Below the pieces are notes generated by a model. It did not search any database and was not told the origin of the DNA. It saw only the letters and a program-made list of their open reading frames with translations. A stretch of DNA of 32,025 nucleotides, taken from assembly GCA_019313765.1 (NCBI GenBank), contig JAFDAP010000001.1, forward strand, positions 1 through 32,025, given 5' to 3'. Each line of letters starts with the position of its first letter. Position 1 is the stretch's first letter. Source of the stretch: Deltaproteobacteria bacterium. GTDB taxonomy: Bacteria > Desulfobacterota > DSM-4660 > Desulfatiglandales > Desulfatiglandaceae. The translations under genes were made by a program, and so were the position numbers. Of the stretch, positions 7,978 to 31,679 are shown one piece after another.

Positions 7978-7997
7978 GGAAGCAAAGGAAACATGAA

Positions 7998-12319: not shown

Positions 12320-13021
12320 CTAAATAAATTTCTCTCTGTTCTGAAGACGGAGAAGAGCAAAGAGAGTGGCCACCACGGAACCCATGATCAGGTAGAGACG
12401 GTTGTAGAATGTAGTCTGGGCCCAGAGCACCGACCTAAGGGCATCCACACTGCGGAAGGGGTTGTGAAAGAGAAACCAGCTGCTGTTCTGAATCTCTTCG
12501 GCCAGCACCCAAAAGAACAAGAGAAAGATAACCATAATTACCGCAGTGACATTGCCGCTGGTGGACTGGGCAGAAATATAAAAGGCCAGGCTCCCCAAAA
12601 AGATCACCGGTATCATCACATGGAAAACCATCCGCCATATGGGGAAATCGGCCAGGGTGAGACGGCAGAGGAGAACCAGGGCGAACATCATAACGGCGAT
12701 GATGATGTAGAGCGTTACCAACCGTGTCAACCAAACTTTGTAGCGGTAATCGGGGATGCCAAAAAGTGTTTCCACCATGCGCGTGTCCTGGTCCCTCTGT
12801 ATGCCGTATACCGAAGGATAGAAGACAAGCAGAATTCCCGGTGCCAGGAGATAATTATAAAGATTTTCCGAATTGGGCGTCCCCCCTCGTCCCAGCAGGC
12901 CTATGACCAGGATCAGGAAAAAGAGGCCCATGGCCAGTCCCAGAAAAACAACGAACCGTCCGCCGAAAACATGGAGGGCATTATATCTCAAAAAGGCGAC
13001 TGCGGTTTTAATCCTGTTCAT
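12320..13021 (-). CDS. Small polytopic membrane protein, probable ABC-2-type permease partner of the fused NBD
   Basis: The protein is 233 aa from 'MNRIKTAVAFLRY' and has six hydrophobic helices by eye. ATG 13021-13019 overlaps the TGA (13020-13018) of the upstream gene as ATGA. The track start at 13063 lies inside the upstream CDS. The permease family assignment is inferred from size, topology and context only. Confidence 0.6.
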   Translation of the reverse strand: MNRIKTAVAFLRYNALHVFGGRFVVFLGLAMGLFFLILVIGLLGRGGTPNSENLYNYLLAPGILLVFYPSVYGIQRDQDTRMVETLFGIPDYRYKVWLTRLVTLYIIIAVMMFALVLLCRLTLADFPIWRMVFHVMIPVIFLGSLAFYISAQSTSGNVTAVIMVIFLLFFWVLAEEIQNSSWFLFHNPFRSVDALRSVLWAQTTFYNRLYLIMGSVVATLFALLRLQNREKFI

Positions 13022-16000
13022 GGCGTGTCTCCTTCGTTCCTTTCGGTCGAACCCATCAACCACATGTAGGAATCCTCCAGGGTGGGAACCACTTGTTTAG
13101 CCTCTTCAAAAGGCTGCTTCCCGGCTAGGATCCGCACTCTGACCTTGCCTGCATCCCTCATATGATGGACCACTTTGGTAGCACGTCGGATCCTATCTAG
13201 ATCACCTTCCGGAATAAGGGCCTGCCAGACATTGCCTCGAGTCCGTTCGACCAATTCCTTGGGAGTGCCGACGAACTTGACTCTTCCCTCCAGCAGAACA
13301 GCCACTTTGTTGCATGAGCTGGAGATGTCCTCAATGATGTGGGTGGAGAAGATCACGATGCGGTCCTTGGCCAATTCAGACAGAAGATTCCTGAATTTGA
13401 TTCTCTCCCTTGGATCCAGTCCCGCCGTCGGTTCATCCACCACCAGGATCCTGGGAAGCTTGAGCAGGGTCTGGGCGATGCCGACCCGCTGCTTCATCCC
13501 TCCTGAAAATGTCCCAATTTTGTTGTCCCGGTTATCCGTAAGATGAACGGATTCCAGCGCGGTGCTGACGATGCGTTCCCTTTCTACCTTGTTCCATATC
13601 CCTTTGAGCATGGCCTGGTAGTCCAGAAACTGGACGACGGTCATGTTTTCATAGGTGCCGAATTCTTGGGGCAGATAGCCGATCAAGGCCTGAAGTTCCT
13701 CCCTGTGCTCCTCCAGGTCCAAGTGATTGAAGGACACTTTACCCCGGCTGGGGCCCAGGATGCCGCAGATGATGCGCATCAGGGTTGTCTTTCCCGCGCC
13801 GTTGGGTCCCACCAGTCCGAACATCCCGCTTCCAATGGAGAGGGAGATTTGGTCCAGTGCTCGGAATGGCTTTTTCTTTCGACTGAGCAAGGGAACACTT
13901 TGAACGAATCTGTAGAAGGCGCGCCGCAGCCGACCAAACCGCCCGGTCAGGCGGTCAATATTAACGCCCTTTTCCTCCAAACGTTTGGCTACGGCCTTGA
14001 GAAGAATGGCCAGATACCAGATCATGCCAAAAAAAACAGTGGAAAATGTATCCTGCCACAAACCATTCAACCAGAGGAGCACAGGAATGGGCAGTCCCCA
14101 GCGAACCACCTTCTCTCCTAGGTCAAATATCCGTTCCCGCAGGCGCCGGGCCGGTCCCGGTGCGGGTTTGAAGGTGCGGAACAAATTCAGGGTAGCCAAA
14201 TAGAAGACGATGACCAGAATCAGCCGCCACAATCCTCCTTTGATGTAAAAGAACAGGAAAAAGACCAGAAAGGCATAGAGGGGAAGGAGATAAACCCAGC
14301 GGGCCAGACGCTCCTTAAAAGGAAGGCTTCCTGATGATACCTCCCGGTCCCTGCCCCCTTTCTTCCACTCTTTTGCGAATTTAATAAAATCGTCATAGAC
14401 CTTGGATACATTGCGGATGGTGATGGTGATGGGTGCATCATCGGCAAAAAGCTGGGTGCGGCTGCGTCGGAGGCTGGTTCTGACAAACCATGTGCCGGCG
14501 GGAATAGCGGCCAAAAGCCCCAGTATGTAGGCGGACTGCCAGAGCACTGAATGGATGGTGTTGATGATCAGGACCAGACCCAAGAAAAACAGCCCCAGCA
14601 TCAGGAGCTTGGTTTTGAGCGGCAGCCTGTTCAGCCAGCGCAGGGTGTTGTCCAGGCCAAAGGCAGCTGTGGGGATGATGACCAGGGTGAAGAGGGTGGC
14701 GAAGGCCAGCCCCCCGATGACTGTGATGGCAAAGGGGGCGCCGATCTGGGAGATGTATTCTGCCCGGCCCATGGCAATGGGCAGCATGGCCAGGATGGTG
14801 GTTACCGCTGTGATCAGGATGGGCCTGACCCGGGTCTGGCCAGCCGTGATCAGGGCACGTGACAAGCGAAAATTTTTCCGTTGGAGGATGCGCGAGTAGT
14901 CGATCAGTATGATGCCGTTGTTGACGACGACACCCAGAAGGATCAGGAATCCGATAAGCGCATTGGCATTGTAGATGGAGTTCCCTGTAAGGATGAGAGC
15001 CAGGAAGGCACCCACCGCGGCCAGGGGCAGGGTGAACATCATCACCAGAGGAGTGATCAGGGATTCGAAGGTGGAGGCAAGGACCATGAAGATGAGCAGG
15101 ATCCCTATTCCAATAAGAAAGTAAAATTCCGAAATGTCGCTTTCATCATGGGCCACTTCAATGGCCACGCCGGGAGGCGGGTAGATACCGGCGACAATGT
15201 CCTCGATCTCCGTCCGGGCCTGATCCAGAAGGGTGCTGGATTCCTCGATATCTGACTCGAACTGGTAGGTCACTGTTACCTGTTTTTCCTGGTTTATCCG
15301 ACTGATCCGGCTGTAGCCTGCCGAATACAGGAGTTTGGAAATCTGGGTGATGGGGACCAACCCCTCCGAGGCGGATGGGATCTGGAGCCTGCGAAGGTCA
15401 TCCGAAGTTTTCTCTTCTTCCTCTTCAGTCTTCAAGATGATGTCCACCTCTTCCGGGCCATCCATGTACTTGACGGTGGCGGATATCTCCTTCTGGAAAG
15501 TGTTAAGCTCATCCATAACTGACTGAAGCCCTACATCAAAATGTTTGAGTGCTGCCTTGTCAAGAAGGAGATCGATGCTGGGCTGCTGGTTGGAAACGCT
15601 GATATTGACCGATCTTACGGTATCGAGATTTTCAATATTGTATTGGATATCCTCGGCTATAGCCCTCAAGATCTCCAGGTCTTGACCACTGAGGATAACC
15701 TTTTCCTGGCTGGCTCCCATACCGAGAAGCCGCTGAAAATCCTGGCCTCTGCCGCTGCCGCCCTGAAAGCCAACATTCTGGGTGGGTTCTTCGTAGGAAA
15801 AGTCGATTCGAGGGAAGGCATCATCCAGCATTCCCTCGATGGAGTCCTTGATCTCCTCGAGAGGACGTCCGGCGATCTTCTCATATCCCTTCTCCAGCTG
15901 AAACGTCAGAACGATGTTGTCCTCCTGGATGGATGATGTCCGTTCCTCTATCTCCTGCATGTCCTTCAACCGCTTATCCATCTCCCGGGCCTGTTCATCC

Positions 16001-17712
16001 GCTGTCTCCAGGGTTGTTCCGGAAGGGAGAGTGGCATACAAATTAAATGTATCAAGTGGAACCTCCCGGGGAACGTTGACACTAAGCCCCAGACAAATAA
16101 CGAGGCTGATAAAAAAGGCCATCACACACACAGCCAGCGTTCCTGCCGGAAAACGCAGGCCTGTTTTGAGAAGCACGGTGTATATCTGCATGGGCCGCTG
16201 CTTTTGGCTGAACGCAGTGCGAGGTGTGTTCTGTTTTTTCCCGGAAAGGATCCGGTAAGCGATGGTGGGAATCAGAAGAAATGCCACTGCCAGCGAAACA
16301 AGAAGAGTAGCGATGATGGAAACACCGATCTGCCAGCCCAGTGTTTTGATCAGGGGCTCAGTAGAAAACAGAAAGGGGACAAAAATGCAGATAGTGGTCA
16401 GTGTGGCAGCGATGATGGCTCGCAGCACTTCATTGGTCCCATCCACTACGGCATTGCCTGCAGTCTGATTCCTGTTGATGTGGCGGTTGATGTTTTCCAG
16501 CACCACAACGCTGCTGTCCAGCAGCATCCCCACCGCAATGGCGATTCCCACAAGAGTAAGTGTGTTGATGGTGATCCCAAGCGCGTAAAAAAGATTCATG
16601 GATATCAAGACAGAGATTGGGATGGTGAGAGCAATGATAAAAACAAATTTAAGCCTTCGTATAAAAACCCAGAGGACGGCGATGGCCAGAAGGCTTCCCA
16701 AAAGGCCCAATATAAAGATGGACTGCATGTTGTCTTCGATGACCCGGGCTTCATCCACCTGAATGACGAGCTCGATTCCGTCGGCACTGATCCGGCGGTT
16801 GATGTCCTCGATGGCCTTACGGGTTTTGGCGGCCAGGGAAAGGAGGTTTGTGTCCCAACTGCGCACCAGTGACACCGTGATGGTCTCCATGCCGTTGATC
16901 CGCGAGATGGATTCCTCCTCCGCCCCACCTTCCCTGATCTCAGCGATCTGGCCCAGTGTTATAGGACCTGTGTTTTTGACCACAACATCAACCAGGTCGG
17001 GAATATTCGTGTACTCGCTGACCAGGTTGATGAAATATTTCTGGCGTCCCTCCCGGGCGACCCCAAGGTACTGCCTTTGTCCAGCCTGCTGGTTGATTTT
17101 GGAGGCAACCTGGTTGATCGTCAATCCGAATTCGGCCAACAGGCTGCTGTCCAGAACGATCTCGATGGACCGCTTGCGGCCGCCGTACACATTAACGTTG
17201 GCCACCCCATCAATGGTTTCCAACTGGGGAGTAACCTTCTCATCAATAACACTGCGGATCTGATCCAGGCCGCCTTCACCTCTGGCTTGAAAGGAAAGGA
17301 ACTGATTGGAGAGCTGCTCGGGATTGGTCCTGGCCACCTTCACCTGGAAGGAGTCGGTCAGCTGGGCCGCAGCGGCCGCAACCCTGTCCTGGAGTTTCAG
17401 AAAATCATATTTTTGGCGGCTGGACTGGTTATAGTAAACAAAGATGGTGGCCTGCCTGCGGCTTACATATGATTCGATCTTTTCGATGTTTTCCAGCCCG
17501 GCGATAGCTCCCTCCAGCGGGATCACGGCATAGTGCTCCACATAGGCAGGATCGGCGTTCTGCGGGCCGGAGATATTGATGATCAATTGAGGAAGCTCAG
17601 TATTCGGGAAGAGCTCGATGGGAAGCTGCCGGAAGGAGACAGCCCCCAGCAGACAGAGCCCGGCAATGAGCATGAAGACTGTAACCGGCCGTCGTATGAT
17701 CTGTCGAATCAT
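13018..17712 (-). CDS. RND (AcrB/HAE-type) efflux permease fused in frame to extra TM helices and a complete ABC-transporter ATPase domain (1,564 aa)
   Basis: Residues 1-~1020 form an RND core, with 'MIRQIIRRPVTVFMLIAGLCLLGAVSF', TM4 'GMLLDSSVVVLENI', and 'LGVVVNNGIILIDY..RVRPILITAVTTILAMLPIA'. The C-terminal NBD has Walker A GPNGAGKT (13786-13809), 'YLPQE', signature FSGGMKQRVG (13480-13509), Walker B ILVVDEPT (13426-13449) and 'STHI'. The frame is uninterrupted, and the start lies 3 nt after the upstream RND stop. Confidence 0.9.
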   Translation of the reverse strand: MIRQIIRRPVTVFMLIAGLCLLGAVSFRQLPIELFPNTELPQLIINISGPQNADPAYVEHYAVIPLEGAIAGLENIEKIESYVSRRQATIFVYYNQSSRQKYDFLKLQDRVAAAAAQLTDSFQVKVARTNPEQLSNQFLSFQARGEGGLDQIRSVIDEKVTPQLETIDGVANVNVYGGRKRSIEIVLDSSLLAEFGLTINQVASKINQQAGQRQYLGVAREGRQKYFINLVSEYTNIPDLVDVVVKNTGPITLGQIAEIREGGAEEESISRINGMETITVSLVRSWDTNLLSLAAKTRKAIEDINRRISADGIELVIQVDEARVIEDNMQSIFILGLLGSLLAIAVLWVFIRRLKFVFIIALTIPISVLISMNLFYALGITINTLTLVGIAIAVGMLLDSSVVVLENINRHINRNQTAGNAVVDGTNEVLRAIIAATLTTICIFVPFLFSTEPLIKTLGWQIGVSIIATLLVSLAVAFLLIPTIAYRILSGKKQNTPRTAFSQKQRPMQIYTVLLKTGLRFPAGTLAVCVMAFFISLVICLGLSVNVPREVPLDTFNLYATLPSGTTLETADEQAREMDKRLKDMQEIEERTSSIQEDNIVLTFQLEKGYEKIAGRPLEEIKDSIEGMLDDAFPRIDFSYEEPTQNVGFQGGSGRGQDFQRLLGMGASQEKVILSGQDLEILRAIAEDIQYNIENLDTVRSVNISVSNQQPSIDLLLDKAALKHFDVGLQSVMDELNTFQKEISATVKYMDGPEEVDIILKTEEEEEKTSDDLRRLQIPSASEGLVPITQISKLLYSAGYSRISRINQEKQVTVTYQFESDIEESSTLLDQARTEIEDIVAGIYPPPGVAIEVAHDESDISEFYFLIGIGILLIFMVLASTFESLITPLVMMFTLPLAAVGAFLALILTGNSIYNANALIGFLILLGVVVNNGIILIDYSRILQRKNFRLSRALITAGQTRVRPILITAVTTILAMLPIAMGRAEYISQIGAPFAITVIGGLAFATLFTLVIIPTAAFGLDNTLRWLNRLPLKTKLLMLGLFFLGLVLIINTIHSVLWQSAYILGLLAAIPAGTWFVRTSLRRSRTQLFADDAPITITIRNVSKVYDDFIKFAKEWKKGGRDREVSSGSLPFKERLARWVYLLPLYAFLVFFLFFYIKGGLWRLILVIVFYLATLNLFRTFKPAPGPARRLRERIFDLGEKVVRWGLPIPVLLWLNGLWQDTFSTVFFGMIWYLAILLKAVAKRLEEKGVNIDRLTGRFGRLRRAFYRFVQSVPLLSRKKKPFRALDQISLSIGSGMFGLVGPNGAGKTTLMRIICGILGPSRGKVSFNHLDLEEHREELQALIGYLPQEFGTYENMTVVQFLDYQAMLKGIWNKVERERIVSTALESVHLTDNRDNKIGTFSGGMKQRVGIAQTLLKLPRILVVDEPTAGLDPRERIKFRNLLSELAKDRIVIFSTHIIEDISSSCNKVAVLLEGRVKFVGTPKELVERTRGNVWQALIPEGDLDRIRRATKVVHHMRDAGKVRVRILAGKQPFEEAKQVVPTLEDSYMWLMGSTERNEGDTP
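13021..13866 (-). other. Domain: ABC ATPase (NBD) with C-terminal extension, paralogous to the ATPase at 30362-31273
   Basis: All NBD motifs are intact (see the parent CDS). The tail '..GNVWQALIPEGDLDRI..VRVRILA..PTLEDSYMWLMG' parallels 'GKVWTISTGYEDLDSW..YELRIVA..PNLEDAYIHYMQ' in the stand-alone ATPase. Confidence 0.85.
13867..14394 (-). other. Domain: ~175-aa hydrophobic insertion (about four TM helices) between an NBD-like first strand and the Walker A region
   Basis: 'ITITIRNVSKVY' (14395-14430) resembles the first strand of an NBD (compare 'MQISISQLSKRY' of the stand-alone ATPase). It is followed by 'WVYLLPLYAFLVFFLFFYI', 'LWRLILVIVFYLATLNLF', 'WGLPIPVLLWLNGLW' and 'FSTVFFGMIWYLAILLKAV', and then by 'KPFRALDQISLSIGSGMFGLVGPNGAGKTT'. 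Confidence 0.55.
14653..17712 (-). other. Domain: RND transporter core (aa 1-~1020 of the fusion)
   Basis: The boundaries come from my residue count of the ORF translation. The last canonical RND helix ends in 'FTLVIIPTAAFGL'. Confidence 0.75.
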
Positions 17713-17715
17713 AGA

Positions 17716-20790: not shown

Positions 20791-20791
20791 T

Positions 20792-21871: not shown

Positions 21872-21874
21872 CCT

Positions 21875-23413: not shown

Positions 23414-23468
23414 GAACAACTCCATTTTCCAGCAGAACACTCAGTCCTGCATGGATCTATTTTTAAGC

Positions 23469-26400
23469 CTAATTCGTTAATGATTTAACCCACTTCACAG
23501 CATCCGCCGTGAGGAAGGTTCCTTTGCCCCTATCCGTTTGTTCTATTGTGTTCGTCCCAGCCGCAAGGCGGAAGGTTCCAAGATATTCCCATCCCTGAGA
23601 TGACTCTTTTATGTCGAAGGCGATCTCTTCGGGTCCGTCCTCGTGGTGGATAATGAAGTGTTTTTCCTCCTGGGTGGGCCTCTTCCAGCCTTCCTTGTCT
23701 CCGCCCTTACCGAAACTCGCAGTTTCATTGTAGAAATAGATGTCGTAGCTGCCGCTTTCCGGAAGGTCCGCTGTCCAGGATACCTTATTGCCGCCCTCAC
23801 CAATCTTTATCATATATCCCGAGCGAATAACCTTCCCATAGAAATCCTGAAGGATAACCGGACTCCATCGTCCGGGAGGATTGGCGGAATTGTATTCCAG
23901 ATACTCCGTCTCTGTGGAGGTAAGGTCAAAGAGCCGATGGATCGTAGACCTGATCCAATTGCCCCCTCCACCGCCGGCTACCACGAATCCCGGATCCTCA
24001 TTGTCGACAATATATTCCCCTGTATCCGGTCGGTCCTGCTCAAAGGGAGCGGATCTCTCCCCCTCAAAGAAAGTATCTCTCTCCTTCACTTTCTGCTGCC
24101 ACAGATTCATGTTCATGGCGGCGGGGATGTTTCGGGAGATGGTTGTGTCCAAAGTCAAAAACACAGGCCGCGTGTCCAGGAGAAAGCCGATTTCCTTGGT
24201 TGTTTTCGGCGGGATAATTACAGTGCTTTGGGTTTCCCAAAGATTACTTCCATATCCTTTGCTTTTACTATTAGCCGTCATCACACTGATTTGAACGATG
24301 CCCTCGGTCTCGGAGATATTTGTCAGTGGCAGGTGGATGTGGGTTCGCTTTTTTTCTCCATCCTGAACACTATACATGTCAGCAGCGCCGACGGTGAATG
24401 CCGGGACCTGTGTTTCCTCGTACCAGGCAGCCATCACCGGCTCCAGATCAAATTCCTTGTAGAAAAAAAGGAATTGAAGAAATTCTTCTTCCGTAATCGT
24501 GCTGAACTTTTTTTCCTTAAGGAAAGCCAGCAGGTTCAGATCGAAATTATCCTCCTGGATACGGGATTCAATGACGGTCATCAGATATTTCCCTTTGGCC
24601 AGGAAAACATTGTAGAGCTCGCGATCATCCAGATCTTTTTCGGCAATAAGGTCAGACATGGAGCGGCCATCCAGAAGCCGGTTGGTTTTTTCCTGATCGG
24701 TCAGTCCCCCTCTCCGATCGAAGCGGAAGCTGGAGGCGGAGATCCTGTCTTGAATCCAGGATTCTACGGCCGAGTGGAGTATGGGCCAGCGATCGGAGGC
24801 CAGTGTTGAGGTGAAGGCGAAATAATTCGGCATCAAGTTATAATCTGCATTCACATCGGACTCCGTCACTCCGGCCAGGGCACCGTCGCTAAAACTTCCT
24901 TTGGCGGGCTGAGTACCCAGGAAATTTGTGCGGACGAATCCGTTAAAAAAGATTGTCTGGATCTGGGCAGTAGTGATATCTTTTCCTCTCTCCCCCTTGC
25001 CTTTCCCCATCCTCTGGTACCAACGCGACAGGGAGGCAAAGTCCGCCCCCTCACACAGTGTTCCCATCTCCGGGAGAAGGACCATTTGCGGTTGGACGGT
25101 TTCGTCCGCCGCACTCCAGAGCCGTTTGTGGCTGTAAAAATGAATAGGGACCTCGACAAAAGCCAACTGCTCATAGGGATAGTCCAAACCAAGAATGACC
25201 TCGAATTCGTCTTTCAGCTGGGTGATGGCCTTAGGCAGGCTTTCCGTAATGGCATCGAGATGCCGCGTGAAATAATCGTGGCCCGGAAGGGTGAAGAGCT
25301 TGAATTCAACGTCCTTGACTTTGAGGGTTCTTTCCTCGAAAGGTCCCACGGTCAGGGATATCTGAGGGAGGAGAGTTTTGGGACGGAAAGTGAAGGTTCT
25401 CCCGCCATCCGACTCCTCGATCTCCGGAATGCCCTGAGACACGGCGGTACAGCCTTCGGGAAGCTTGACCTTGAGTGTGTATTGACAAAAATCACTGTCC
25501 ACCGCCCCGGGGAATCGGTGACTGAGGGGGATCCCCTCCCGGGGATACCAGCCACTTTCCGGTGTTAGATGGACGAATTTTTCAGAAAGAAAAACATATT
25601 TTTTCGGCACATTGTAAAGACCCAGTTTCGAGGGATTGCGCGTGGTTTTGCCATCGATATCCGGATAGCAGTAAGCCTCAATTGGAGCGCCGGCATAGAC
25701 TATTTGAAGATCGATGTTTTCATCGAAGCCCAGAGGCTTTGGCAGCCATATGAATACTATGTGGCCCTCCCTGGAGAAATCCACATCTTGGCCGTTGTTA
25801 GTGACACGGCTGATCTGAAGCCCCGGATTCAGGGTCAGAAGGAGTGAGTCAGCGGGTTTTTCCCGTTTGTTTTTCAGCCGGATATTTGAAGCAGCCGAAA
25901 GGGTGCTTCCTGCAAATTCCACATCCAGGGAACAGGATTCCATGCTGAGTGGGGCGATGTCTTTATATTTATCACTGGCCGTTATCAGATCTTGGCGCAG
26001 GGAATCTAAAACCCTGTTGCTTTGGACATGGCTTAACATCAGTCCAAAAGCGGAAAGAACGAGCAGCACGGACAGCGTTCCGGACAATGCCGTTGTCCAG
26101 GGGGACTGCCTTAGCCGCTTAGCCAAAAGCACGGTTCCAAAGACAAAACCAACTCCCAGGAGGAAGTAAGGGAACCGCAAATAAAACAACTGCACGTTGT
26201 TGCCCAACCCAATAAAATCGGAATACATCAGCGGTGTATGGAATCCGAATATGTCGGGGATGAAGTAAGCCTTGTTCCCAAGGACGGCCAGGCTAATGGA
26301 GGACAGGGCCAGCCCCAAAAGGATGACGGCCGCCTGGCTGCGGATGGTCATACCCAGTATAAAGGACAGGCCCACTAGGAACACCAGTGTTGGAAGATTG

Positions 26401-26858
26401 ATCGTTAGAAAATATAGCAGGTAGGCAGTGAAGCTGAAGGGGGTTTCAGAAAGAAAAAGGTGAATCAGAGCGGTCATCACGCCGACAAGGATATTCATCA
26501 GAATAAACAGGCCGAGTACACCGAGAAACTTGCCGAGAATATAGCTGGTATTGGAGAAGGACCGGGAAAAGATGACCTGAGTGGAATGTGTCCTCCGGTC
26601 CCGTTTGAAGAATTCCGTGGCCATGAAGACCACGATAATACCCTGGTAAACATTGAAGAGTTTGAAGCTGAACAACGGGATGGATCCTGACAGGGACCGG
26701 AAGTAATAGGGGAAGGAAAAGGAGGGGGCGGCGATCCCGGCCGTCAAAAGACCCATAATAATAAGGCCCAACAGTGCGAAAATGCGGAAGCCCCAGGACC
26801 TCAGGAGAATTTTTGTCTCATATGCGGCGATTTTTAGACAAATCCTCACAGCCTTCAT
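23469..26858 (-). CDS. Fusion protein: 7-TM ABC-2-type permease domain + M1-aminopeptidase-like (no HExxH) domain + C-terminal golvesin-like module (paralog 1, 1,129 aa)
   Basis: Seven hydrophobic helices span aa ~20-280. M1 N-domain-like strings follow: 'SCSLDVEFAGSTLSAASNIRLKN..LLLTLNPGLQISRV..IDLQIVYAG', 'ESGWYP', 'YTLKVKLPEGCTAVSQG'. The C-terminus 'YIVDNEDPGF..GSYDIYFY..QGWEYLGTFRLAAGTNTIEQ..FLTADAVKWV' matches the golvesin C-terminal-like pattern. The SD GAGGATAAAGAC precedes the ATG. Confidence 0.75.
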   Translation of the reverse strand: MKAVRICLKIAAYETKILLRSWGFRIFALLGLIIMGLLTAGIAAPSFSFPYYFRSLSGSIPLFSFKLFNVYQGIIVVFMATEFFKRDRRTHSTQVIFSRSFSNTSYILGKFLGVLGLFILMNILVGVMTALIHLFLSETPFSFTAYLLYFLTINLPTLVFLVGLSFILGMTIRSQAAVILLGLALSSISLAVLGNKAYFIPDIFGFHTPLMYSDFIGLGNNVQLFYLRFPYFLLGVGFVFGTVLLAKRLRQSPWTTALSGTLSVLLVLSAFGLMLSHVQSNRVLDSLRQDLITASDKYKDIAPLSMESCSLDVEFAGSTLSAASNIRLKNKREKPADSLLLTLNPGLQISRVTNNGQDVDFSREGHIVFIWLPKPLGFDENIDLQIVYAGAPIEAYCYPDIDGKTTRNPSKLGLYNVPKKYVFLSEKFVHLTPESGWYPREGIPLSHRFPGAVDSDFCQYTLKVKLPEGCTAVSQGIPEIEESDGGRTFTFRPKTLLPQISLTVGPFEERTLKVKDVEFKLFTLPGHDYFTRHLDAITESLPKAITQLKDEFEVILGLDYPYEQLAFVEVPIHFYSHKRLWSAADETVQPQMVLLPEMGTLCEGADFASLSRWYQRMGKGKGERGKDITTAQIQTIFFNGFVRTNFLGTQPAKGSFSDGALAGVTESDVNADYNLMPNYFAFTSTLASDRWPILHSAVESWIQDRISASSFRFDRRGGLTDQEKTNRLLDGRSMSDLIAEKDLDDRELYNVFLAKGKYLMTVIESRIQEDNFDLNLLAFLKEKKFSTITEEEFLQFLFFYKEFDLEPVMAAWYEETQVPAFTVGAADMYSVQDGEKKRTHIHLPLTNISETEGIVQISVMTANSKSKGYGSNLWETQSTVIIPPKTTKEIGFLLDTRPVFLTLDTTISRNIPAAMNMNLWQQKVKERDTFFEGERSAPFEQDRPDTGEYIVDNEDPGFVVAGGGGGNWIRSTIHRLFDLTSTETEYLEYNSANPPGRWSPVILQDFYGKVIRSGYMIKIGEGGNKVSWTADLPESGSYDIYFYNETASFGKGGDKEGWKRPTQEEKHFIIHHEDGPEEIAFDIKESSQGWEYLGTFRLAAGTNTIEQTDRGKGTFLTADAVKWVKSLTN

Positions 26859-26925
26859 GTCTTTATCCTCGGATCTCCTTGTAGATATGTTTCTAAAAGT
26901 TGAGATACAAAAAACTTCACTGCTT

Positions 26926-29900
26926 TTAATTCTGGTTTGTTCTGACCCACTTCACCGCATCGGCTGTGAGGAAGGCTCCCTTGCCCTTGTCCGTTTGTTC
27001 GATCGTGTTCACTCCTTCCGCCAGGCGGAAGGTCCCAAGCAGGACCCAACCCTGAGACGACTCCTGGATGTCGAAGGCGATCTCCTCGGTGCCGTCCTCG
27101 TGGTGGACGATAAAGTGTTTTTCCTCCTGGGTGGGCCGCTGCCGGTTTTCTCCTCTGCCTCCACCCCGCATGCCTCCGCCCTGTCCCCGGCCCCTGCCGA
27201 AGATCATGGTTTCGTTGTAAAAATAGATATCGTAGCTTCCGCTTTCCGGGAGGTTAACCGTCCAGGAAACTCTGTTACTGCCCTCCCCGACCTTGATCAT
27301 GTGGCCGGTATGGAGGATGGTGCCATAGAAATTCTGGAGGATGACCGGGGTCCAGCGTCCGGGGGGATTGTTGAGATTGTAACCAAGATACTCCGCCTCG
27401 ACGTTCGAACGGTCAAAGAGCCGGCGGATGGCCGTTCGGAGCTTGTTGTCTCCACCGCCCCCAGCCACAGTGAATCCCGGGTCCTCATTGTCGACGATAT
27501 ATTCTCCGGGAGTATCGAATTGGTCCTCCTCATAGGGAGTGGATCTTTCCCCTTCAAAGAAGGTTTCCGTTGCTTCTATCTTCCGCTCAAACAGGGGCAG
27601 GTTCATGGTGGAGGGGATGTTTCGCGAGATGGTTGTATCCATCTGCAGTATCATAGGCCGGCTGTCCAGGAGGATGCCAACCTCCTTGGTTGTTTTTGGG
27701 GGGATAAGAATAGTGCTTTCGATCTCCCACCCCGCTCCGCCACTTCGCATGCCGCCTCTACTCTGTGCGGACATCATGCTGATTTTTACGATGCCTTCGG
27801 TTTCAGAGATGTTTGTGACGGGCAGGCGGACGTGGTGGCGCTGCTGCTCCCCGTCCCGGACGGTGAACACACCAATGGAGCCAATGGTGAATGCCGGGAC
27901 CTGTGTTTCTTCGTACCAGGCAGCCATCACAGGTTCCAGATCAAATTCCTTATAGGCAAAAAGGAATTGGAGAAATTCTTCTTCCGTAATGGTGCTGAAT
28001 TTTTTCTTTTTGATAAAGGACAGAAGTTTTTCGTCGAAATTGTCCTCCTGAATGCGCGATTCGATGACAGTCATCAGATATTTCCCCTTGGCCAGGATGA
28101 TGTCGTAGAGATCATCATCGGTCAGGGTTTTATCTGCCATTAGATCGGAAATGGAACGGCCATCCAAAAGCCGGTTGGTTCTTTCCTGATCGGTCAGTCC
28201 GCCGCTCCGGTTGAACCGGAAGCTGGCAGCAGAGATCCTATCCTGGAGCCAGGATTCCAGGGCTGAGTGAAGGATGGGCCAGCGGTCGGAGGCAAGCGTG
28301 GAAGTGAAGGCGAAATAATTCGGTATCAGGTTGTATTGCGCATCCACATCGGATTCCGTTACGCTGGAAAGGGCTGTGTCGCGAAAGCCTCTCCTTGTGG
28401 ACTGGGAGCCCAGGAGGTTACTACGGACAAAGCGCGTGAAAAAACTGTTTTGGATCTGGGCCGGGCTGGTTTCCGCTCCTGGGCGCCTATTAAATCCCCC
28501 TCTTCTCTGCATCATGCGCTCCATGGAAGCAAAGTCCGCTCTTTGACACAGTGTTCCCATCTCCGGCAGAAAAACCATCTGGGGCTGGACGGTTTCGTCC
28601 GCCGCGCTCCAGAGGCGCTTGTGGCTGAAAAAGTGGATGGGAACCTCCACCAGCGCCAACTGCTCATAGGGATAGTCCAAACCGAGGGTGACCTCAAACT
28701 CGTCTTTCAGCTGGGTGATGGTCTTGGGCAGATCTTCAGAGATGGCATCGAGATGCTGTGCGTAATAATCGTGTCCCGGAAGGGTGAAGAGCTTATACTC
28801 TACGTCTTTGACCTTGAGGGTCCTTTCTTCATAGGGGCCGACCGTCAAGGATATCTGAGGAAGAGGTGTTGAGGGGCGGAAAGTGTAGGTTTTGCCGCCG
28901 TTAGACTCTATGATTTCCGGAAGGCCCTGGGAGATAGCCGTGCGGCCTTCGGGCAGTCGGATACTGAGCGTGTAGTGAGAGAAATCATGGGCCACTGCCC
29001 CGGGAAAGCGGTGACTGAGAGGGATCCCCGCTCGGGGATACCAGCCGCTCTCCGATGTCAGATGGATGAATTTTTCTGATAGGAAGATGTATTTTTTCGG
29101 CACATTGTAAAGCCCCAGTTTCGAGGGCTTGCGCAGAATTTCATCCTCGATGTCTGGGTAGCAGTAGGCCTCCCATAAAGTGCCGGCATAATCTATCCGG
29201 AGAGTGATGCTGGCACCAGATGCCAGGGGAACCGATGGTTGTATAAGGAGGACGTGTCCCTTTCTGACATGATCAAGAGTCGAATCGCCGGCTGTGACAC
29301 GGCTGATCTGAAGCCCCGGATTCAGGGTCAGGAGGAGGGATTCAGCGGGTTTTTCCTGTCTGTTTTTTAAAAGGATCTCGGAAGAGGCCGACAGAACATT
29401 GCCGGAAAATTCCACATCAAGGGAACAAGATTCCATGCTCATTGCGGGAATCTCAGCGTATTTTTGACTTTCCGCCAGAAGGTCACGGCGTTGGGAATCA
29501 ACGTCTCTGTTGGATTGGATATGGCTGAATATCAGGCCCAGGGCTGAGAGGACAAACAGGACTGAAAGTGCCCCGGACAAAGCCGTTGTCCAAGGTGATT
29601 GCCTCAGCCGTTTGGCCAGAAGCACTGTACCAAAGACAAACCCCAGGCCCAGAAGGAGGAGAGGGAACCGCAGCTGAAAAAGCTGTGCGCTATTGCCAAG
29701 CCCAATAAAATCAGAATACATCAGTGGTGTATGGAATCCGAATATGTCGGGGATAAAATAGGCCTTGTTTCCCAGGGCGATCAGGCTGAGGGACGATATG
29801 GCCAGTCCCAATAGAATGACAGCCGCCTGGCTGCGAATGACAACAGCCAAAACAAAGGACAATCCGATAAGGAATACCAGAGTGGGAAGGGTAAGCGTCA

Positions 29901-30351
29901 GAAAGTAAAGAAAGTAAGCCTGGATGCTAAAAGGCGTCTCCGACAGAAAGAGTTGGATCAGAGCTGTGATCACACCGACAAGAATATTCATCAGGACAAA
30001 CAGCCCGATGACTCCTAAGAATTTGCCCAGGATGTAGCTGGTGTTGGAAAAGGACCGGGAAAAGATGACCTGGGTGGAATGAGTCCTTCTGTCCCGTTTG
30101 AAGAATTCCGTGGCCATGAAAACCACGATAATGCCCTGATAGACATTGAAGAGTTTGAAGCTGAACAGAGGGATGGATCCTGACAAGGACCGGAAATAGT
30201 AGGGGAAGGAAAAGGAAGGGGCTGCGATCCCTGCCGTCAAAAGGCTCATAATGATGAGGCCCAACAGGGCGAATATGCGGAATCCCCAAGACCTCAGGAG
30301 AATTTTGGCTTCATAAGCGGCTATTTTTAGACAGATTATCATAGATGTCAT
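26926..30351 (-). CDS. Fusion protein: 7-TM ABC-2-type permease domain + M1-aminopeptidase-like (no HExxH) domain + golvesin-like module (paralog 2, 1,141 aa)
   Basis: It is colinear without indels with paralog 1 through aa ~860. I place the start at 'MTSMIICLKIAAYEAK' (ATG 30351; SD GAGG in TGAGGTTAAAGATATG, 10 nt after the ATPase stop). The track's 151-codon upstream extension overlaps the ATPase gene in another frame and has no homology to paralog 1. Confidence 0.75.
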   Translation of the reverse strand: MTSMIICLKIAAYEAKILLRSWGFRIFALLGLIIMSLLTAGIAAPSFSFPYYFRSLSGSIPLFSFKLFNVYQGIIVVFMATEFFKRDRRTHSTQVIFSRSFSNTSYILGKFLGVIGLFVLMNILVGVITALIQLFLSETPFSIQAYFLYFLTLTLPTLVFLIGLSFVLAVVIRSQAAVILLGLAISSLSLIALGNKAYFIPDIFGFHTPLMYSDFIGLGNSAQLFQLRFPLLLLGLGFVFGTVLLAKRLRQSPWTTALSGALSVLFVLSALGLIFSHIQSNRDVDSQRRDLLAESQKYAEIPAMSMESCSLDVEFSGNVLSASSEILLKNRQEKPAESLLLTLNPGLQISRVTAGDSTLDHVRKGHVLLIQPSVPLASGASITLRIDYAGTLWEAYCYPDIEDEILRKPSKLGLYNVPKKYIFLSEKFIHLTSESGWYPRAGIPLSHRFPGAVAHDFSHYTLSIRLPEGRTAISQGLPEIIESNGGKTYTFRPSTPLPQISLTVGPYEERTLKVKDVEYKLFTLPGHDYYAQHLDAISEDLPKTITQLKDEFEVTLGLDYPYEQLALVEVPIHFFSHKRLWSAADETVQPQMVFLPEMGTLCQRADFASMERMMQRRGGFNRRPGAETSPAQIQNSFFTRFVRSNLLGSQSTRRGFRDTALSSVTESDVDAQYNLIPNYFAFTSTLASDRWPILHSALESWLQDRISAASFRFNRSGGLTDQERTNRLLDGRSISDLMADKTLTDDDLYDIILAKGKYLMTVIESRIQEDNFDEKLLSFIKKKKFSTITEEEFLQFLFAYKEFDLEPVMAAWYEETQVPAFTIGSIGVFTVRDGEQQRHHVRLPVTNISETEGIVKISMMSAQSRGGMRSGGAGWEIESTILIPPKTTKEVGILLDSRPMILQMDTTISRNIPSTMNLPLFERKIEATETFFEGERSTPYEEDQFDTPGEYIVDNEDPGFTVAGGGGDNKLRTAIRRLFDRSNVEAEYLGYNLNNPPGRWTPVILQNFYGTILHTGHMIKVGEGSNRVSWTVNLPESGSYDIYFYNETMIFGRGRGQGGGMRGGGRGENRQRPTQEEKHFIVHHEDGTEEIAFDIQESSQGWVLLGTFRLAEGVNTIEQTDKGKGAFLTADAVKWVRTNQN

Positions 30352-30361
30352 ATCTTTAACC

Positions 30362-31273
30362 TCATTCTTTTTTTTCAAATATCCCGGAAAGATGGCCCGA
30401 GGACGCAGTCTGCATATAATGGATATAGGCGTCTTCCAGATTGGGTTCCACGGGGATGGCCTCCATCGTGCCCGGATTCTCCGCCACGATCCGCAGCTCG
30501 TATCCACCTTCCGAGGGGACCGTGGAGATAACAGGGAACCGCGCCTTCCAGCTGTCCAGGTCTTCATAGCCGGTGGATATGGTCCAGACTTTTCCCCGGG
30601 CGCTGTCCACAAGGTCGGCTGGAGGACCGTGAAAGATGATGCGTCCCATGTCCATAAGCGCGATGGTCTCGCAGGTGGAGGAGATGTCACCCACAATGTG
30701 GGTGGAGAGAAGGATGATCCGGTCCTGGGATGACAGATCGGACAAAAGATTGCGGAACCGGATCCGCTCCTCCGGATCCAGACCGACCGTGGGTTCGTCC
30801 ACAACCAGGAGCGGAGGGTCTCCGATCAGGGTTTGGGCAATGCCCAGTCTCCTCTTCATGCCGCCGGAGAGCTTCCCCGTCATACGGTCCCTGGCTTCGA
30901 AGAGACCCACTGTTTCCAGCAGCAGGTCGATCCTGTCCCGGCGCTTGTTTTTGGACAGGATACCGTTGAGACAGGCACTGTAATCCATAAACTCCCAAAC
31001 CGTCAGTTTGGCGAACACGGAAAAATCCTGGGGAAGATAGCCGATCTGCCGCCGGATCTCCTTGCGGTTTTTGCGGATGTCCAGATCATTGACTTTGACG
31101 CGTCCGGAGCTGGGTTTTAGAAGTGTGACCAGGATGCGCATCAACGTAGTTTTTCCGGCGCCGTTGGGGCCTAGCAGACCGAACAATCCTTTTGGGATGT
31201 CCATATCGATATCCTTAAGGGCCAGCTTGCCGCCGGGATAACGTTTTGAAAGTTGTGATATTGAAATTTGCAT
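30362..31273 (-). CDS. ABC transporter ATP-binding protein (ABC-2/DrrA-like subfamily), first gene of the operon
   Basis: The 303-aa ORF has Walker A 'GPNGAGKTT', 'YLPQDF', signature 'LSGGMKRRLG', Walker B 'LLVVDEPT' and 'STHI'. AGGAAAA lies 7 nt upstream of the ATG, and a ~400-bp AT-rich intergenic region lies upstream. Confidence 0.95.
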   Translation of the reverse strand: MQISISQLSKRYPGGKLALKDIDMDIPKGLFGLLGPNGAGKTTLMRILVTLLKPSSGRVKVNDLDIRKNRKEIRRQIGYLPQDFSVFAKLTVWEFMDYSACLNGILSKNKRRDRIDLLLETVGLFEARDRMTGKLSGGMKRRLGIAQTLIGDPPLLVVDEPTVGLDPEERIRFRNLLSDLSSQDRIILLSTHIVGDISSTCETIALMDMGRIIFHGPPADLVDSARGKVWTISTGYEDLDSWKARFPVISTVPSEGGYELRIVAENPGTMEAIPVEPNLEDAYIHYMQTASSGHLSGIFEKKE

Positions 31274-31679
31274 GTTCTTTTCCTAGCGATTATATTTAAT
31301 ATTTATATCATTATGATTCAGCTTTGTGTTATTTCTTTGAAAGGTTTTCATTTTATTAGACCCATTAAGAAAGCTTTTTCTTCCAAAAAAGATAGGTCAT
31401 AAGGCGATTTATTCTTATTGCTGGATTGCTTGTCTTCTTAGTAAAAATCCATCTTGACAATCACATAACTTTTGGTTATTCTGCCAAATATGAAAATGAA
31501 TGGCAGGAAAAGAGCTCATTGCGAAACTGACCTGCCCCCCATCAATGTATCACCTTTAAAGTGAGATTATTAGTCCTTTGAACATGCCCCCTTCTTTGAT
31601 TCATTATCTAAGTTAGAAAATAAATTGAATATTCAGCTCTGTCTTTTAAGAAAATTCAACAGATCCACTCTCTTGCAGG

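What the first reader, a model, noticed from the sequence alone, without database searches (positions are those of the whole stretch)
12320..31273. A ~19-kb eight-gene array combining two ABC modules with a complete tripartite two-RND efflux machine
All eight genes are co-directional. Spacers in transcription order are 10, 67, 55 (28 if the OMP starts at the track's GTG 23440 rather than ATG 23413), 3, 1 and 3 nt, followed by a 4-nt ATGA overlap. I saw no obvious internal terminator.

The gene order is NBD1 (303 aa), two permease/M1-like/golvesin-like giants, a TolC-like OMP, a lipoprotein MFP, RND1, the RND2-NBD2 fusion, and a 6-TM permease. NBD1 and NBD2 are clear paralogs of the same subfamily and share the same C-terminal extension.

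The locus therefore encodes ABC module A (NBD1 plus two giant TMD proteins with large periplasmic domains) and ABC module B (NBD2 plus the small permease), wired to one RND/MFP/OMP channel.

Inference: this may be a multi-stage envelope export or processing machine, perhaps for a glycan-bearing or peptide substrate given the M1-like and golvesin-like periplasmic domains, rather than a simple drug pump. No regulator gene is adjacent within the window.
Basis: partly seen in the sequence, partly recalled or inferred. Interest (0 to 1): 0.85.

Follow-up and report, generated by a model that had tools for sequence, protein, structure and literature searches.

The report
Conserved RND–ABC hybrid envelope export operon
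This Aminicenantes-type operon encodes a two-membrane efflux pump in which one proton-driven RND subunit is permanently fused to an ATP-driven ABC motor, next to giant ABC permeases carrying inactive peptidase-like and sugar-binding domains; the same gene set recurs in four bacterial phyla and I found no study of it.

Summary
Eight co-directional minus-strand genes (12320-31273) have exactly the reported spacers.

They encode:
- an ABC ATPase (NBD1);
- two paralogous 7-TM permeases with an ~860-aa periplasmic domain (G1, G2);
- a TolC-like OMF;
- a lipoprotein MFP;
- an RND pump (RND1);
- an RND2::NBD2 fusion (1564 aa);
- a 6-TM protein.

The fusion is not an assembly artefact. More than 110 protein clusters at 51-100% identity keep it full-length. 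The gene order NBD1-G-OMF-MFP-RND1-RND2::NBD2-perm was the same in all nine other loci I examined, from Aminicenantes, Zixibacteria, Gemmatimonadota and Bacteroidales, and the flanking genes differed each time. The conserved core has seven genes; the second G gene is a duplication retained in some lineages.

New details:
- NBD2's first β-strand is separated from the rest of the domain by a ~175-aa insertion with four TM helices.
- The 270-aa linker occurs only inside such fusions.
- The "M1-like" domain has the aminopeptidase fold but lacks HEXXH in 37 of 37 homologues.
- The "golvesin" domain is CBM-like.

My best reading is one integrated, dual-energised (ATP plus PMF) two-stage export machine. 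The substrate is unknown. No literature describing it was found.

The parts
31274..31679 (-). AT-rich non-coding region of about 400 nt upstream of NBD1; presumed promoter/leader of the operon (inferred)
   Evidence: GC is 0.41 over 31001-32000, against about 0.52 inside the operon. The sequence was read. No Rfam family matches it. Only weak sigma-70-like matches are present.
30362..31273 (-). NBD1: stand-alone ABC ATPase (303 aa) with a C-terminal extension; presumed motor of the G permeases
   Evidence: ABC_tran 114 bits. Best NCBIfam hits are DrrA and GldA, both below cut-off. Walker A, signature, Walker B-Glu and H-loop motifs can be read directly in the sequence. NBD1 orthologues are 59-70% identical across loci.
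26926..30351 (-). G1: 1141-aa protein with an N-terminal interface helix, 7 TM helices, a periplasmic M1-aminopeptidase-fold domain (domains I-III, no zinc motif) and a C-terminal Golvesin_C/CBM-like domain
   Evidence: Pfam hits. AF2 model with pLDDT 75 and pTM 0.68. Foldseek matches IRAP/ERAP1 at E 8e-18 over about 650 columns. PDB profile hits to M1 enzymes and to the C-terminus of a xanthan lyase. HEXXH absent in 37/37 homologues. Positive-inside topology analysis places the large domain in the periplasm.
23469..26858 (-). G2: 1129-aa paralogue of G1 (75% identity) with the same architecture
   Evidence: G1-type and G2-type proteins form separate orthologous groups in close relatives.
21875..23413 (-). 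TolC-like outer-membrane factor (512 aa from ATG 23413; 521 aa from GTG 23440) with an N-terminal signal-like hydrophobic segment
   Evidence: OEP 145.7 bits, two repeats. NodT/TolC subfamily hits are below cut-off. Candidate start codons listed; hydropathy.
20792..21871 (-). Lipoprotein membrane-fusion (periplasmic adaptor) protein, 359 aa, with an LTGC lipobox
   Evidence: TIGR01730 RND_mfp 187 bits, above the 94.9 cut-off. HlyD_D23 and HlyD_3 hits. Sequence.
17716..20790 (-). RND1: full-length RND permease, 1024 aa
   Evidence: ACR_tran 744 bits over profile positions 2-1020 of 1021. Best solved relative is MdtB, 9lyq. 28% identical to RND2.
14668..17712 (-). RND2 domain of the fusion protein (aa 1-1015)
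   Evidence: ACR_tran 514.6 bits over profile positions 1-1015. The TM4 Asp (D399), the TM10 NN...D residues and the TM11 R.R residues are invariant in 25 fusions.
13867..14667 (-). Fusion-specific membrane linker (aa 1016-1282). It comprises two TM helices (about 1032-1078), NBD2 strand β1 with the A-loop Tyr (ITIRNVSKVY, aa 1097-1106; nt 14395-14424), and a ~175-aa insertion with four TM helices.
   Evidence: Sequence. AF2 secondary structure. Conserved residues N1101, Y1106, F1112, W1205, P1208, W1232 and Y1233. Positive-inside analysis. Only 81 hits among 1.84 billion representative proteins; the near-complete hits (about 1550-1585 aa) carry the linker at about residues 1025-1295.
13018..13866 (-). 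NBD2 core plus C-terminal extension (aa 1283-1564) of the fusion protein, including the stop codon
   Evidence: ABC_tran 101 bits. 49% identical to NBD1. Walker A, Q-loop, signature, D1426-E1427 and H1458 are invariant. Best structural matches are TM_1403, NosF and ABCA NBDs.
12320..13021 (-). Small 6-TM membrane protein (233 aa from ATG 13021; the ATGA overlaps the fusion's stop codon); presumed membrane partner of NBD2; belongs to an orphan family
   Evidence: Orthologues lie immediately after the fusion in every locus whose sequence extends past the fusion's 3' end. 6019 homologous clusters; the 120 listed have no Pfam domain, and every source name given is 'hypothetical protein'. No Pfam, NCBIfam or PDB assignment.

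Best explanation
The locus encodes one self-contained, operon-organised envelope export system. It is built from a conserved seven-gene core; here there are eight genes because the giant permease gene is duplicated.

Proposed components and roles:
- A heteromeric RND pump (RND1 plus RND2), a lipoprotein adaptor and a TolC-like duct form the route across the periplasm and outer membrane, driven by the proton-motive force.
- ABC module B is joined to the pump covalently. NBD2 is fused to the C-terminus of RND2 through six extra TM helices, four of which are inserted between strands β1 and β2 of the NBD. Its partner is the small 6-TM protein, whose gene is translationally coupled to the fusion.
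- ABC module A consists of NBD1 and the 7-TM giant permeases G1 and G2, probably as a heterodimer. Their periplasmic domains are a non-catalytic M1-aminopeptidase scaffold and a CBM-like lectin domain.

The most likely mechanism is two-stage export. The ATP-driven modules extract or flip an amphipathic peptide- and/or glycan-bearing substrate at the inner membrane, or mechanically drive the periplasmic binding domains. The substrate is then handed to the RND porter domains and expelled through the OMF.

Shown here: gene content, domain identities, intact ATPase motifs, loss of the peptidase motif, conservation of the fusion and of the gene order, and predicted topology.

Inferred: physical assembly, stoichiometry, direction of transport, energy coupling and substrate.
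For: Fusion:
- It is full-length (about 1545-1620 aa) in more than 110 clusters at 51-100% identity, from Aminicenantes, Zixibacteria and Gemmatimonadota, plus a Bacteroidales MAG at 44%.
- The linker carries invariant residues. It occurs almost nowhere else: 81 hits in 1.84 billion representatives, and the near-complete ones (about 1550-1585 aa) are fusions.

Gene order and module structure:
- Identical gene order in L001, L002, L003, L083-L088, with different flanking genes each time.
- Very short spacers or overlaps from OMF to perm. No terminator-like site lies in any spacer.
- NBD1 and NBD2 form separate orthologous groups: 59-80% identity within a group and 39-47% between groups.
- The NBD1-G unit is the part that is amplified.
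- G1-type and G2-type paralogues are both retained in two Aminicenantes clades.

Both NBDs look active:
- NBD2 keeps invariant Walker A, Q-loop, signature, Walker B-Glu, H-loop and A-loop Tyr.
- The same motifs can be read in NBD1 of the window.

RND parts:
- RND1 and RND2 are full-length ACR_tran proteins, 28% identical to each other. The nearest solved relative of RND1 is MdtB, a subunit of a heteromeric RND pump (heteromer noted in PMC8277102).

G permeases:
- Positive-inside analysis puts the 864-aa domain in the periplasm.
- The domain has the M1 fold but no HEXXH motif.
- Golvesin_C corresponds to the CBM6/35/36-like_2 domain, which is a lectin in Cbeg4/5 (PMC9166713).

Precedent for an RND-superfamily PMF device cooperating with an ATPase-driven translocon: SecDF with SecYEG/SecA (PMC8277102).
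Against: - There is no experimental or transcript evidence, and no structure of any complex.
- An RND trimer and an NBD dimer have mismatched symmetry, so the stoichiometry is unclear.
- The small 6-TM protein could not be tied to any ABC permease family. The only signal is ABC2_membrane_2 at E 0.045 in 2 of 4 members. hhalign finds no relation between perm, the G TMD and the linker.
- The ABC-2 hit of G1 is below Pfam's cut-off (18.5 vs 27.2 bits).
- The periplasmic domains of a G dimer are too large to sit inside an adaptor ring of the MacA type, so any coupling to the duct would have to be lateral or indirect (inference).
- Nothing identifies the substrate. No riboswitch was found and no regulator or biosynthetic gene is consistently adjacent.
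Confidence: 0.5

Rival explanations
1. NBD2 is not the motor of a second transporter. It is an ATP-dependent gate, regulator or alternative energy input for the RND pump itself. ATP binding and hydrolysis in the membrane-tethered NBD2, dimerising with a second NBD2 or with NBD1, would be transmitted through the six extra TM helices and the small 6-TM protein to the RND transmembrane domain. This would switch or power the pump, for example when the PMF is low in anaerobic sediment bacteria.
For: - The fusion is covalent and the linker is conserved, with TM helices inserted inside the NBD.
- The small membrane protein belongs to no ABC permease family.
- NBD1 and NBD2 are paralogues of one subfamily and could in principle heterodimerise.
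- NBD2's closest structures include NosF, whose ABC complex acts through a periplasmic partner.
Against: - RND2 keeps the invariant TM4 Asp, TM10 Asp and TM11 Arg residues expected of a proton-coupled RND protein.
- No precedent for an ATP-gated RND pump was found in the literature searches.
- The 4-nt overlap with a dedicated 6-TM protein is the usual layout of an NBD and its permease.
Confidence: 0.2
2. The system is an envelope-biogenesis or surface-assembly machine rather than an efflux pump. It would move a cell-made lipid-linked glycan, glycolipid, lipoprotein or exopolymer to the cell surface, in the manner of ABC-2 exporters such as Wzm/Wzt or KpsMT and RND lipid transporters such as HpnN and MmpL. 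The CBM-like and M1-like domains would hold the polymer or anchor the machine to peptidoglycan.
For: - The C-terminal domain is CBM-like.
- The NBDs are of the ABC-2/ABCA-like type.
- The core is conserved as an apparently housekeeping-like unit across four diderm phyla.
- The G ectodomain is duplicated and diversified.
Against: - No glycosyltransferase, polymerase or lipid-synthesis gene is consistently adjacent.
- RND1 and RND2 score best against multidrug/heavy-metal-type RND models, not HpnN or MmpL.
Confidence: 0.15
3. The cluster holds functionally independent transporters (an ABC-2 exporter, an RND drug or metal pump and a further ABC module) that merely share an operon.
For: - Each component type works on its own elsewhere.
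- In L087 four unrelated genes sit between G and OMF, and in L086 HTH/Fic genes sit between NBD1-G units, so module A can be physically separated from the rest.
Against: - The RND2::NBD2 fusion ties at least two of the modules together.
- The order of all seven genes is kept in nine of nine other loci across four phyla, although flanks are never conserved.
- In this survey the G family was seen only in this context.
Confidence: 0.12
4. The fusion ORF is an assembly or frameshift artefact joining an RND gene to a downstream ABC gene.
For: None found.
Against: More than 110 independent clusters from the JGI, ENA, NCBI and Logan sources have the same length and architecture. The junction region carries conserved residues.
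Confidence: 0.01

Closest known systems
MdtABC-TolC (heteromeric RND tripartite pump of E. coli)
   Same: Two adjacent paralogous RND genes served by one adaptor and an OMF. RND1's best solved relative is MdtB (9lyq, E 2e-99). Heterotrimeric RND pumps are a known rarity (PMC8277102).
   Different: The proteins are not orthologues: they score 394-415 bits against MdtB/MdtC equivalog cut-offs of 1584-1774. Neither Mdt subunit carries an ABC domain or extra TM helices, and Mdt has no associated ABC modules. The OMF is encoded inside the operon here.
NosDFY (ABC-2-type complex: ATPase NosF with a C-terminal domain, 6-TM NosY, and periplasmic NosD)
   Same: The NBD2 model superposes on NosF, including the C-terminal domain (7osf, 7o14, 7o0y; E about 1e-16 to 1e-15). 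JGI labels several G homologues as the NosY-type COG, 'multi-copper enzyme maturation permease'. Both are ABC-2 modules acting through a large periplasmic domain.
   Different: In G the periplasmic domain is fused to the permease and has an M1 plus CBM fold, not a β-helix. No nos genes are present. There is no RND/MFP/OMF in the Nos system.
TCDB 3.A.1.145, peptidase-fused uncharacterised ABC-2 family (e.g. M. xanthus Q1D520)
   Same: An N-terminal ABC-2-type membrane domain followed by a C-terminal M1-peptidase-family domain in a protein of about 1200 aa. Function unknown (PMC3924187).
   Different: Q1D520 is described with 13 TMS and a zinc-dependent peptidase domain. G has 7 TM helices, no HEXXH motif, an added Golvesin_C/CBM domain, and always sits in the RND cluster. 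No direct sequence comparison was made.
MacAB-TolC and other ABC-driven tripartite pumps
   Same: An ATP-driven inner-membrane component with a periplasmic domain, working with an MFP and a TolC-like duct. The mechanotransmission idea also applies.
   Different: MacB has the FtsX/MacB fold with 4 TM helices. No FtsX domain was detected here. The adaptor here scores as RND-type, and the duct's inner-membrane partner is presumably the RND pump.
SecDF with SecYEG/SecA
   Same: A PMF-driven RND-superfamily protein cooperating with an ATPase-driven translocation step (PMC8277102). This is a conceptual precedent for ATP plus PMF in one export path.
   Different: The two components are not fused, the pathway does not span the outer membrane, and it moves unfolded proteins. 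SecDF matches to RND1 and RND2 are only partial.
CFTR NBD1 regulatory insertion (from my own knowledge, not tested)
   Same: An insertion between strands β1 and β2 of an ABC NBD is tolerated and has a regulatory role.
   Different: The CFTR insertion is a short, soluble, disordered segment. Here the insertion is about 175 aa with four TM helices.

Membership tests
RND tripartite efflux system (RND permease + MFP + OMF) | Full-length RND permease with 12 TM helices and two large periplasmic loops (Pfam ACR_tran) | tested here: met
   RND1 scores 744 bits and RND2 514.6 bits, both covering about 1-1015 of 1021 profile positions.
RND tripartite efflux system (RND permease + MFP + OMF) | Periplasmic adaptor of the RND_mfp family | tested here: met
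   TIGR01730 scores 187.1 bits against a cut-off of 94.9.
RND tripartite efflux system (RND permease + MFP + OMF) | Outer-membrane factor with two OEP repeats | tested here: met
   PF02321 scores 145.7 bits in two stretches. The NodT and TolC subfamily cut-offs are not reached.
RND tripartite efflux system (RND permease + MFP + OMF) | Proton-relay residues in TM4, TM10 and TM11 | tested here: inconclusive
   The TM4 Asp and the TM11 R.RP residues are present and invariant in RND2. The AcrB K940 equivalent is Asn in both RND1 and RND2, with an Asp at the end of TM10. The comparison with AcrB numbering is from memory.
NCBIfam RND_permease_2 multidrug subfamily | Score above the curated cut-off (1250 bits) | tested here: not met
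   RND1 scores 653.8 bits and RND2 441.3 bits.
MdtBC-type heteromeric RND pump | Two paralogous RND genes adjacent in one operon with a single adaptor | tested here: met
   Gene layout. The two RND domains are 28% identical.
MdtBC-type heteromeric RND pump | Orthology to MdtB/MdtC (equivalog cut-offs) | tested here: not met
   Scores of 394 against a cut-off of 1584, and 415 against 1774.
MdtBC-type heteromeric RND pump | Formation of a heterotrimer | not testable with these tools
   This needs multimer prediction or biochemistry.
ABC transporter ATPase | Walker A, Q-loop, LSGG signature, Walker B with catalytic Glu, and H-loop | tested here: met
   All motifs are present in NBD1 and NBD2 and invariant in the NBD2 domains of 25-40 fusions. 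ABC_tran scores 114 and 101 bits.
ABC-2 type permease (PF12679 ABC2_membrane_2) | Score above Pfam's gathering cut-off | tested here: inconclusive
   G1 scores 18.5 bits against a cut-off of 27.2, and G2 has no hit. PF12679 is recorded for the homologues P0228, P0229, P0233 and for the G of L085. For the small perm, only E 0.045 in 2 of 4 members.
M1 aminopeptidase | M1 fold (β-sandwich, thermolysin-like domain, β-sandwich) | tested here: met
   Foldseek matches IRAP, ERAP1 and PepN at E down to 8e-18 over about 650 columns. Profile hits to M1 enzymes in the PDB.
M1 aminopeptidase | Zinc-binding motif HEXXH-(18 residues)-E | tested here: not met
   No HEXXH motif in any of 37 G homologues. Pfam Peptidase_M1 scores 21.5 and 16.2 bits, below the 27.7 cut-off.
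Golvesin_C / CBM6-35-36-like_2 domain | Score above Pfam's gathering cut-off | tested here: met
   52.9 and 48 bits against a cut-off of 31.6. Carbohydrate binding itself was not tested; lectin activity is known for Cbeg4/5.
GldA/GldF/GldG gliding-motility ABC transporter | GldA equivalog cut-off (402.6 bits) | tested here: not met
   NBD1 scores 185.5 bits and NBD2 170 bits.
MacB/FtsX-type tripartite ABC pump | FtsX-type permease domain | tested here: not met
   No FtsX or MacB family hit in any of the eight proteins.
TCDB 3.A.1.145 (ABC-2 fused to M1 peptidase) | N-terminal ABC-2 membrane domain followed by a C-terminal M1-family domain | tested here: inconclusive
   The architecture is analogous. 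However, G has 7 TM helices rather than 13 and no zinc motif, and no sequence comparison with Q1D520 was possible.

The most novel reading that the evidence does not exclude
This is a new class of tripartite pump that is energised or gated by both ATP and the proton-motive force. An ABC ATPase, split by a four-helix membrane insertion, is covalently built into one protomer of a heteromeric RND trimer and acts on the RND transport cycle. Giant ABC-2 permeases with a catalytically dead M1 scaffold and a lectin domain capture a glycopeptide-like or glycolipid-like substrate in the periplasm and feed it to the pump.
Probability: 0.3. Interest if true: 0.9.

Novelty: new variant of a known kind. 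Interest (0 to 1): 0.77.

Why it matters
RND pumps are the textbook proton-driven transporters and ABC pumps the textbook ATP-driven ones. A conserved covalent fusion of the two, inside a fixed seven-gene module present in at least four diderm phyla, implies a form of energy coupling or hand-over between the two transporter classes that has not been described.

It offers a natural test case for the long-discussed idea that inner-membrane exporters and periplasm-capturing RND pumps cooperate.

It also assigns a genomic context to three families that were previously uncharacterised:
- the 6-TM protein, with thousands of metagenomic clusters that have no Pfam domain among the 120 listed;
- the fusion-specific linker;
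- the permease with a pseudo-M1 domain and a CBM domain.

The host lineages (Aminicenantes, Zixibacteria) are abundant and uncultured, so the system may matter for their envelope biology.

Tried and rejected
Searches and tests that led nowhere or limited the conclusions:
- The genome-contig scan with the fusion alignment chose NBD motifs as its search patterns. It was swamped by generic ABC ATPases: only L003 was a true fusion, and L006 and L007 turned out to be separate RND and ABC genes. The taxonomic survey is therefore incomplete.
- hhalign between the small permease, the G membrane domain and the linker gave no relation, with probabilities below 1%.
- Pfam, NCBIfam and PDB profile searches with the small permease gave nothing usable.
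- Rfam scans of the whole window and of the 5' region found no riboswitch.
- Flanking genes were compared across nine loci for a conserved regulator or biosynthetic partner. None was found. Sensor kinases follow the cluster only in L001 and L083.
- Literature searches for an RND-ABC fusion, for ABC-2/M1 fusions and for Aminicenantes efflux found only the TCDB 3.A.1.145 note.
- The cluster-member look-up added little taxonomy.

Ideas rejected:
- Assembly artefact.
- Active M1 peptidase.
- GldA, MacB, MdtB or MdtC orthology.

Limitation: coordinates of the AF2 models could not be inspected. Packing of strand β1 against the NBD2 sheet rests only on the DSSP strand assignment.

Full report
**1. 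Observation**

The minus strand between 12320 and 31273 carries eight consecutive ORFs. With G1 starting at ATG 30351 and the last gene at ATG 13021, the spacers are 10, 67, 28 or 55, 3, 1 and 3 nt, followed by a 4-nt ATGA overlap, exactly as reported. The 67-nt G1-G2 spacer contains an AAGGAG/GAGGA ribosome-binding site.

The cluster is bounded upstream by about 400 nt of AT-rich non-coding DNA. Downstream it ends 61 nt from a convergent AbiEii gene.

No terminator-like site falls in a spacer. Promoter-like and terminator-like counts are near shuffle expectation.

**2. Identity of the parts**

Pfam and NCBIfam give:
- NBD1: ABC_tran, 114 bits.
- G1 and G2: Golvesin_C above cut-off; Peptidase_M1 and ABC2_membrane_2 below cut-off.
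- An OMF with two OEP repeats.
- An RND-type adaptor (TIGR01730, 187 bits) with an LTGC lipobox.
- RND1: ACR_tran, 744 bits.
- A 1564-aa protein with ACR_tran over aa 1-1015 and ABC_tran over aa 1286-1430.
- A 233-aa hydrophobic protein with no family.

NBD1 and NBD2 are 49% identical over 270 aa, including the C-terminal extension. RND1 and RND2 are 28% identical. RND1's closest solved relative is MdtB.

**3. The fusion is real and conserved**

A search of 5.8 billion proteins returned more than 110 clusters of about 1545-1620 aa that carry both domains. They are 51-100% identical to the window protein. Where named, they come from Aminicenantes, Zixibacteria and Gemmatimonadota. A Bacteroidales MAG carries a 44%-identical copy. 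The closest named relatives are Candidatus Aminicenantaceae, so the window most probably comes from that lineage.

An alignment of 25 fusions shows invariant ATPase motifs: Walker A, Q1349, SGGM, D1426-E1427 and H1458. It also shows invariant residues scattered through the linker: W1026, W1058, P1071, N1101, Y1106, F1112, W1205, P1208 and W1232.

I searched the 270-aa linker alone against 1.84 billion representative proteins. It found only 81 hits. The near-complete ones (about 1550-1585 aa) carry the linker at about residues 1025-1295, and the shorter hits look like fragments. The linker is therefore a fusion-specific module.

**4. Anatomy of the linker**

The sequence ITIRNVSKVY (aa 1097-1106) corresponds to NBD1's N-terminal strand and its A-loop Tyr. 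The rest of NBD2 resumes at about aa 1283.

The AF2 model (pLDDT 75) predicts the following order: two helices after RND TM12, a β-strand at 1097-1106, several long helices, and then the NBD.

Hydropathy and the positive-inside rule give two TM helices before β1 and four after it. Every NBD piece is cytoplasmic.

NBD2 is thus an ABC domain split between β1 and β2 by a four-TM insertion and tethered to RND2 by a TM hairpin. Its best structural matches are TM_1403, NosF and ABCA-type NBDs, which places it in the ABC-2/type-V class.

**5. The giant permeases**

The AF2 model of G1 (pLDDT 75, pTM 0.68) shows:
- an N-terminal amphipathic helix;
- seven TM helices;
- a β-sandwich (aa 305-523);
- a mixed α/β domain (aa 531-815);
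- a second β-sandwich (aa 821-960);
- a C-terminal β domain.

Foldseek matches IRAP, ERAP1 and PepN at E down to 8e-18 over about 650 columns. PDB profile searches also hit M1 enzymes, and hit the C-terminus of a xanthan lyase.

None of 37 homologues has an HEXXH motif, so the M1 scaffold is not a zinc peptidase. Golvesin_C corresponds to the CBM6/35/36-like_2 domain, which acts as a lectin in Cbeg4/5 (PMC9166713). Charge distribution places the 864-aa domain in the periplasm.

G1 and G2 are 75% identical. Divergence peaks at aa 351-400 and 601-650.

**6. Synteny**

The order NBD1-G-OMF-MFP-RND1-RND2::NBD2-perm is identical in:
- L001 (Zixibacteria);
- L002 (Gemmatimonadota);
- L003 (Bacteroidales);
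- L083, L084, L085 and L088;
- L086 and L087, as far as those loci extend.

Flanking genes differ in every locus. They include Rnf, MutS, cbb3 maturation genes, sensor kinases and peptidases.

Variation is confined to module A:
- L086 has three G genes and two NBD1 genes, interrupted by HTH/Fic genes.
- L087 has four unrelated genes between G and OMF.

In the window's clade, G1-type and G2-type proteins form separate orthologous groups. A second Aminicenantes clade shows the same pattern. This is consistent with heterodimeric membrane domains or with alternative specificities.

NBD1 and NBD2 also form separate orthologous groups: 59-80% identity within a group and 39-47% between groups. The two ABC modules are therefore old and distinct.

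**7. The small membrane protein**

It always follows the fusion, with an overlap or a very short spacer. It has six predicted TM helices with both termini inside. It has 6019 homologous clusters. The 120 listed carry no Pfam domain, and every source name given is 'hypothetical protein'.

No Pfam, NCBIfam, PDB or profile-profile link to the G membrane domain or to the linker could be made. Its role as NBD2's permease is an inference from position.

**8. Mechanism**

I consider one integrated export machine the most likely reading (about 0.5). ATP-driven ABC modules would act at the inner membrane. The non-catalytic M1/CBM ectodomains would bind a peptide- and/or glycan-bearing substrate. A heteromeric RND/MFP/OMF pump would expel it using the PMF. 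The covalent fusion would ensure coupling.

Rivals:
- NBD2 acts as an ATP-dependent gate or energy input of the RND pump (0.2).
- The system is a surface-polymer or lipid biogenesis machine (0.15).
- The cluster holds independent transporters that share an operon (0.12).
- The fusion is an artefact (about 0.01; refuted).

Physical assembly, stoichiometry (trimer versus dimer symmetry), substrate and transcription were not testable.

**9. Comparison with known systems, and novelty**

The closest known systems are:
- MdtABC-TolC (two-RND layout, but not orthologous);
- NosDFY (NBD type and periplasmic action);
- TCDB 3.A.1.145 ABC-2/M1 fusions (uncharacterised; PMC3924187);
- MacAB-TolC;
- conceptually, SecDF with SecA/SecYEG (PMC8277102).

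Full-text searches found no description of an RND-ABC fusion. Automated annotation merely concatenates the names 'AcrB/ABC ATPase'.

I rate this as a new variant of known kinds, with high interest. The interest rests on three points: a covalent union of the two main bacterial efflux energisation modes, an NBD split by a membrane insertion, and strict conservation of the module across phyla.

Noticed in passing
window 10817-12258 (+): A complete AbiEi antitoxin / AbiEii nucleotidyltransferase toxin pair (PADLOC E 1.7e-52 and 2.6e-65). Its genes overlap by 4 nt and are convergent with the end of the operon. It lies in a low-GC stretch (0.40-0.42), so it is probably a mobile insertion.
   Followed up: partly
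window 8994-10718 (-): A 574-aa Ser/Thr protein kinase with an N-terminal zinc ribbon. Its kinase domain scores strongly against PADLOC PD-T4-6 models (E 7e-103). That may reflect only the kinase fold. It is the nearest possible regulator of the operon.
   Followed up: partly
window 4144-5034 (+): ORF 4144-4680 matches only the C-terminal half of the sulfatase profile (positions 149-301 of 301) plus the start of SGSH_C, and a second short ORF follows at 4687-5034. This looks like a truncated or frameshifted sulfatase pseudogene.
   Followed up: no
window 31680-31922 (-): An 80-aa ORF on the same strand, about 400 nt upstream of NBD1. A near-consensus sigma-70-like site (CTGACA-18-TATAAT, 11 of 12) lies at 31916-31887, inside its 5' end. 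Its function is unknown.
   Followed up: no
L086 5424-19432: In one Aminicenantes contig the NBD1-G unit is amplified, giving G, NBD1-G, then NBD1-G upstream of OMF-MFP-RND1. An HTH/Fic pair is inserted between copies, and the two NBD1 copies are 95% identical.
   Followed up: partly
L087 6588-9330: Four unrelated genes (AAA_14/DUF4143 and three small ORFs, three of them on the opposite strand) are inserted between G and the OMF gene. Module A can therefore be separated from the rest without the cluster being lost.
   Followed up: no
L001 15631-21834 and L083 18375-21203: In L001 (Zixibacteria) and in L083 (unnamed host), PAS/GAF sensor histidine kinases and response regulators lie just downstream of the cluster. 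They are possible lineage-specific regulators and are absent from the window.
   Followed up: no
window 7001-8000: A local GC peak (0.596, against about 0.45-0.52 around it) over the PALP-family gene at 6994-7977. The neighbouring genes are an ornithine cyclodeaminase-like gene and an M24 aminopeptidase P-like gene.
   Followed up: no
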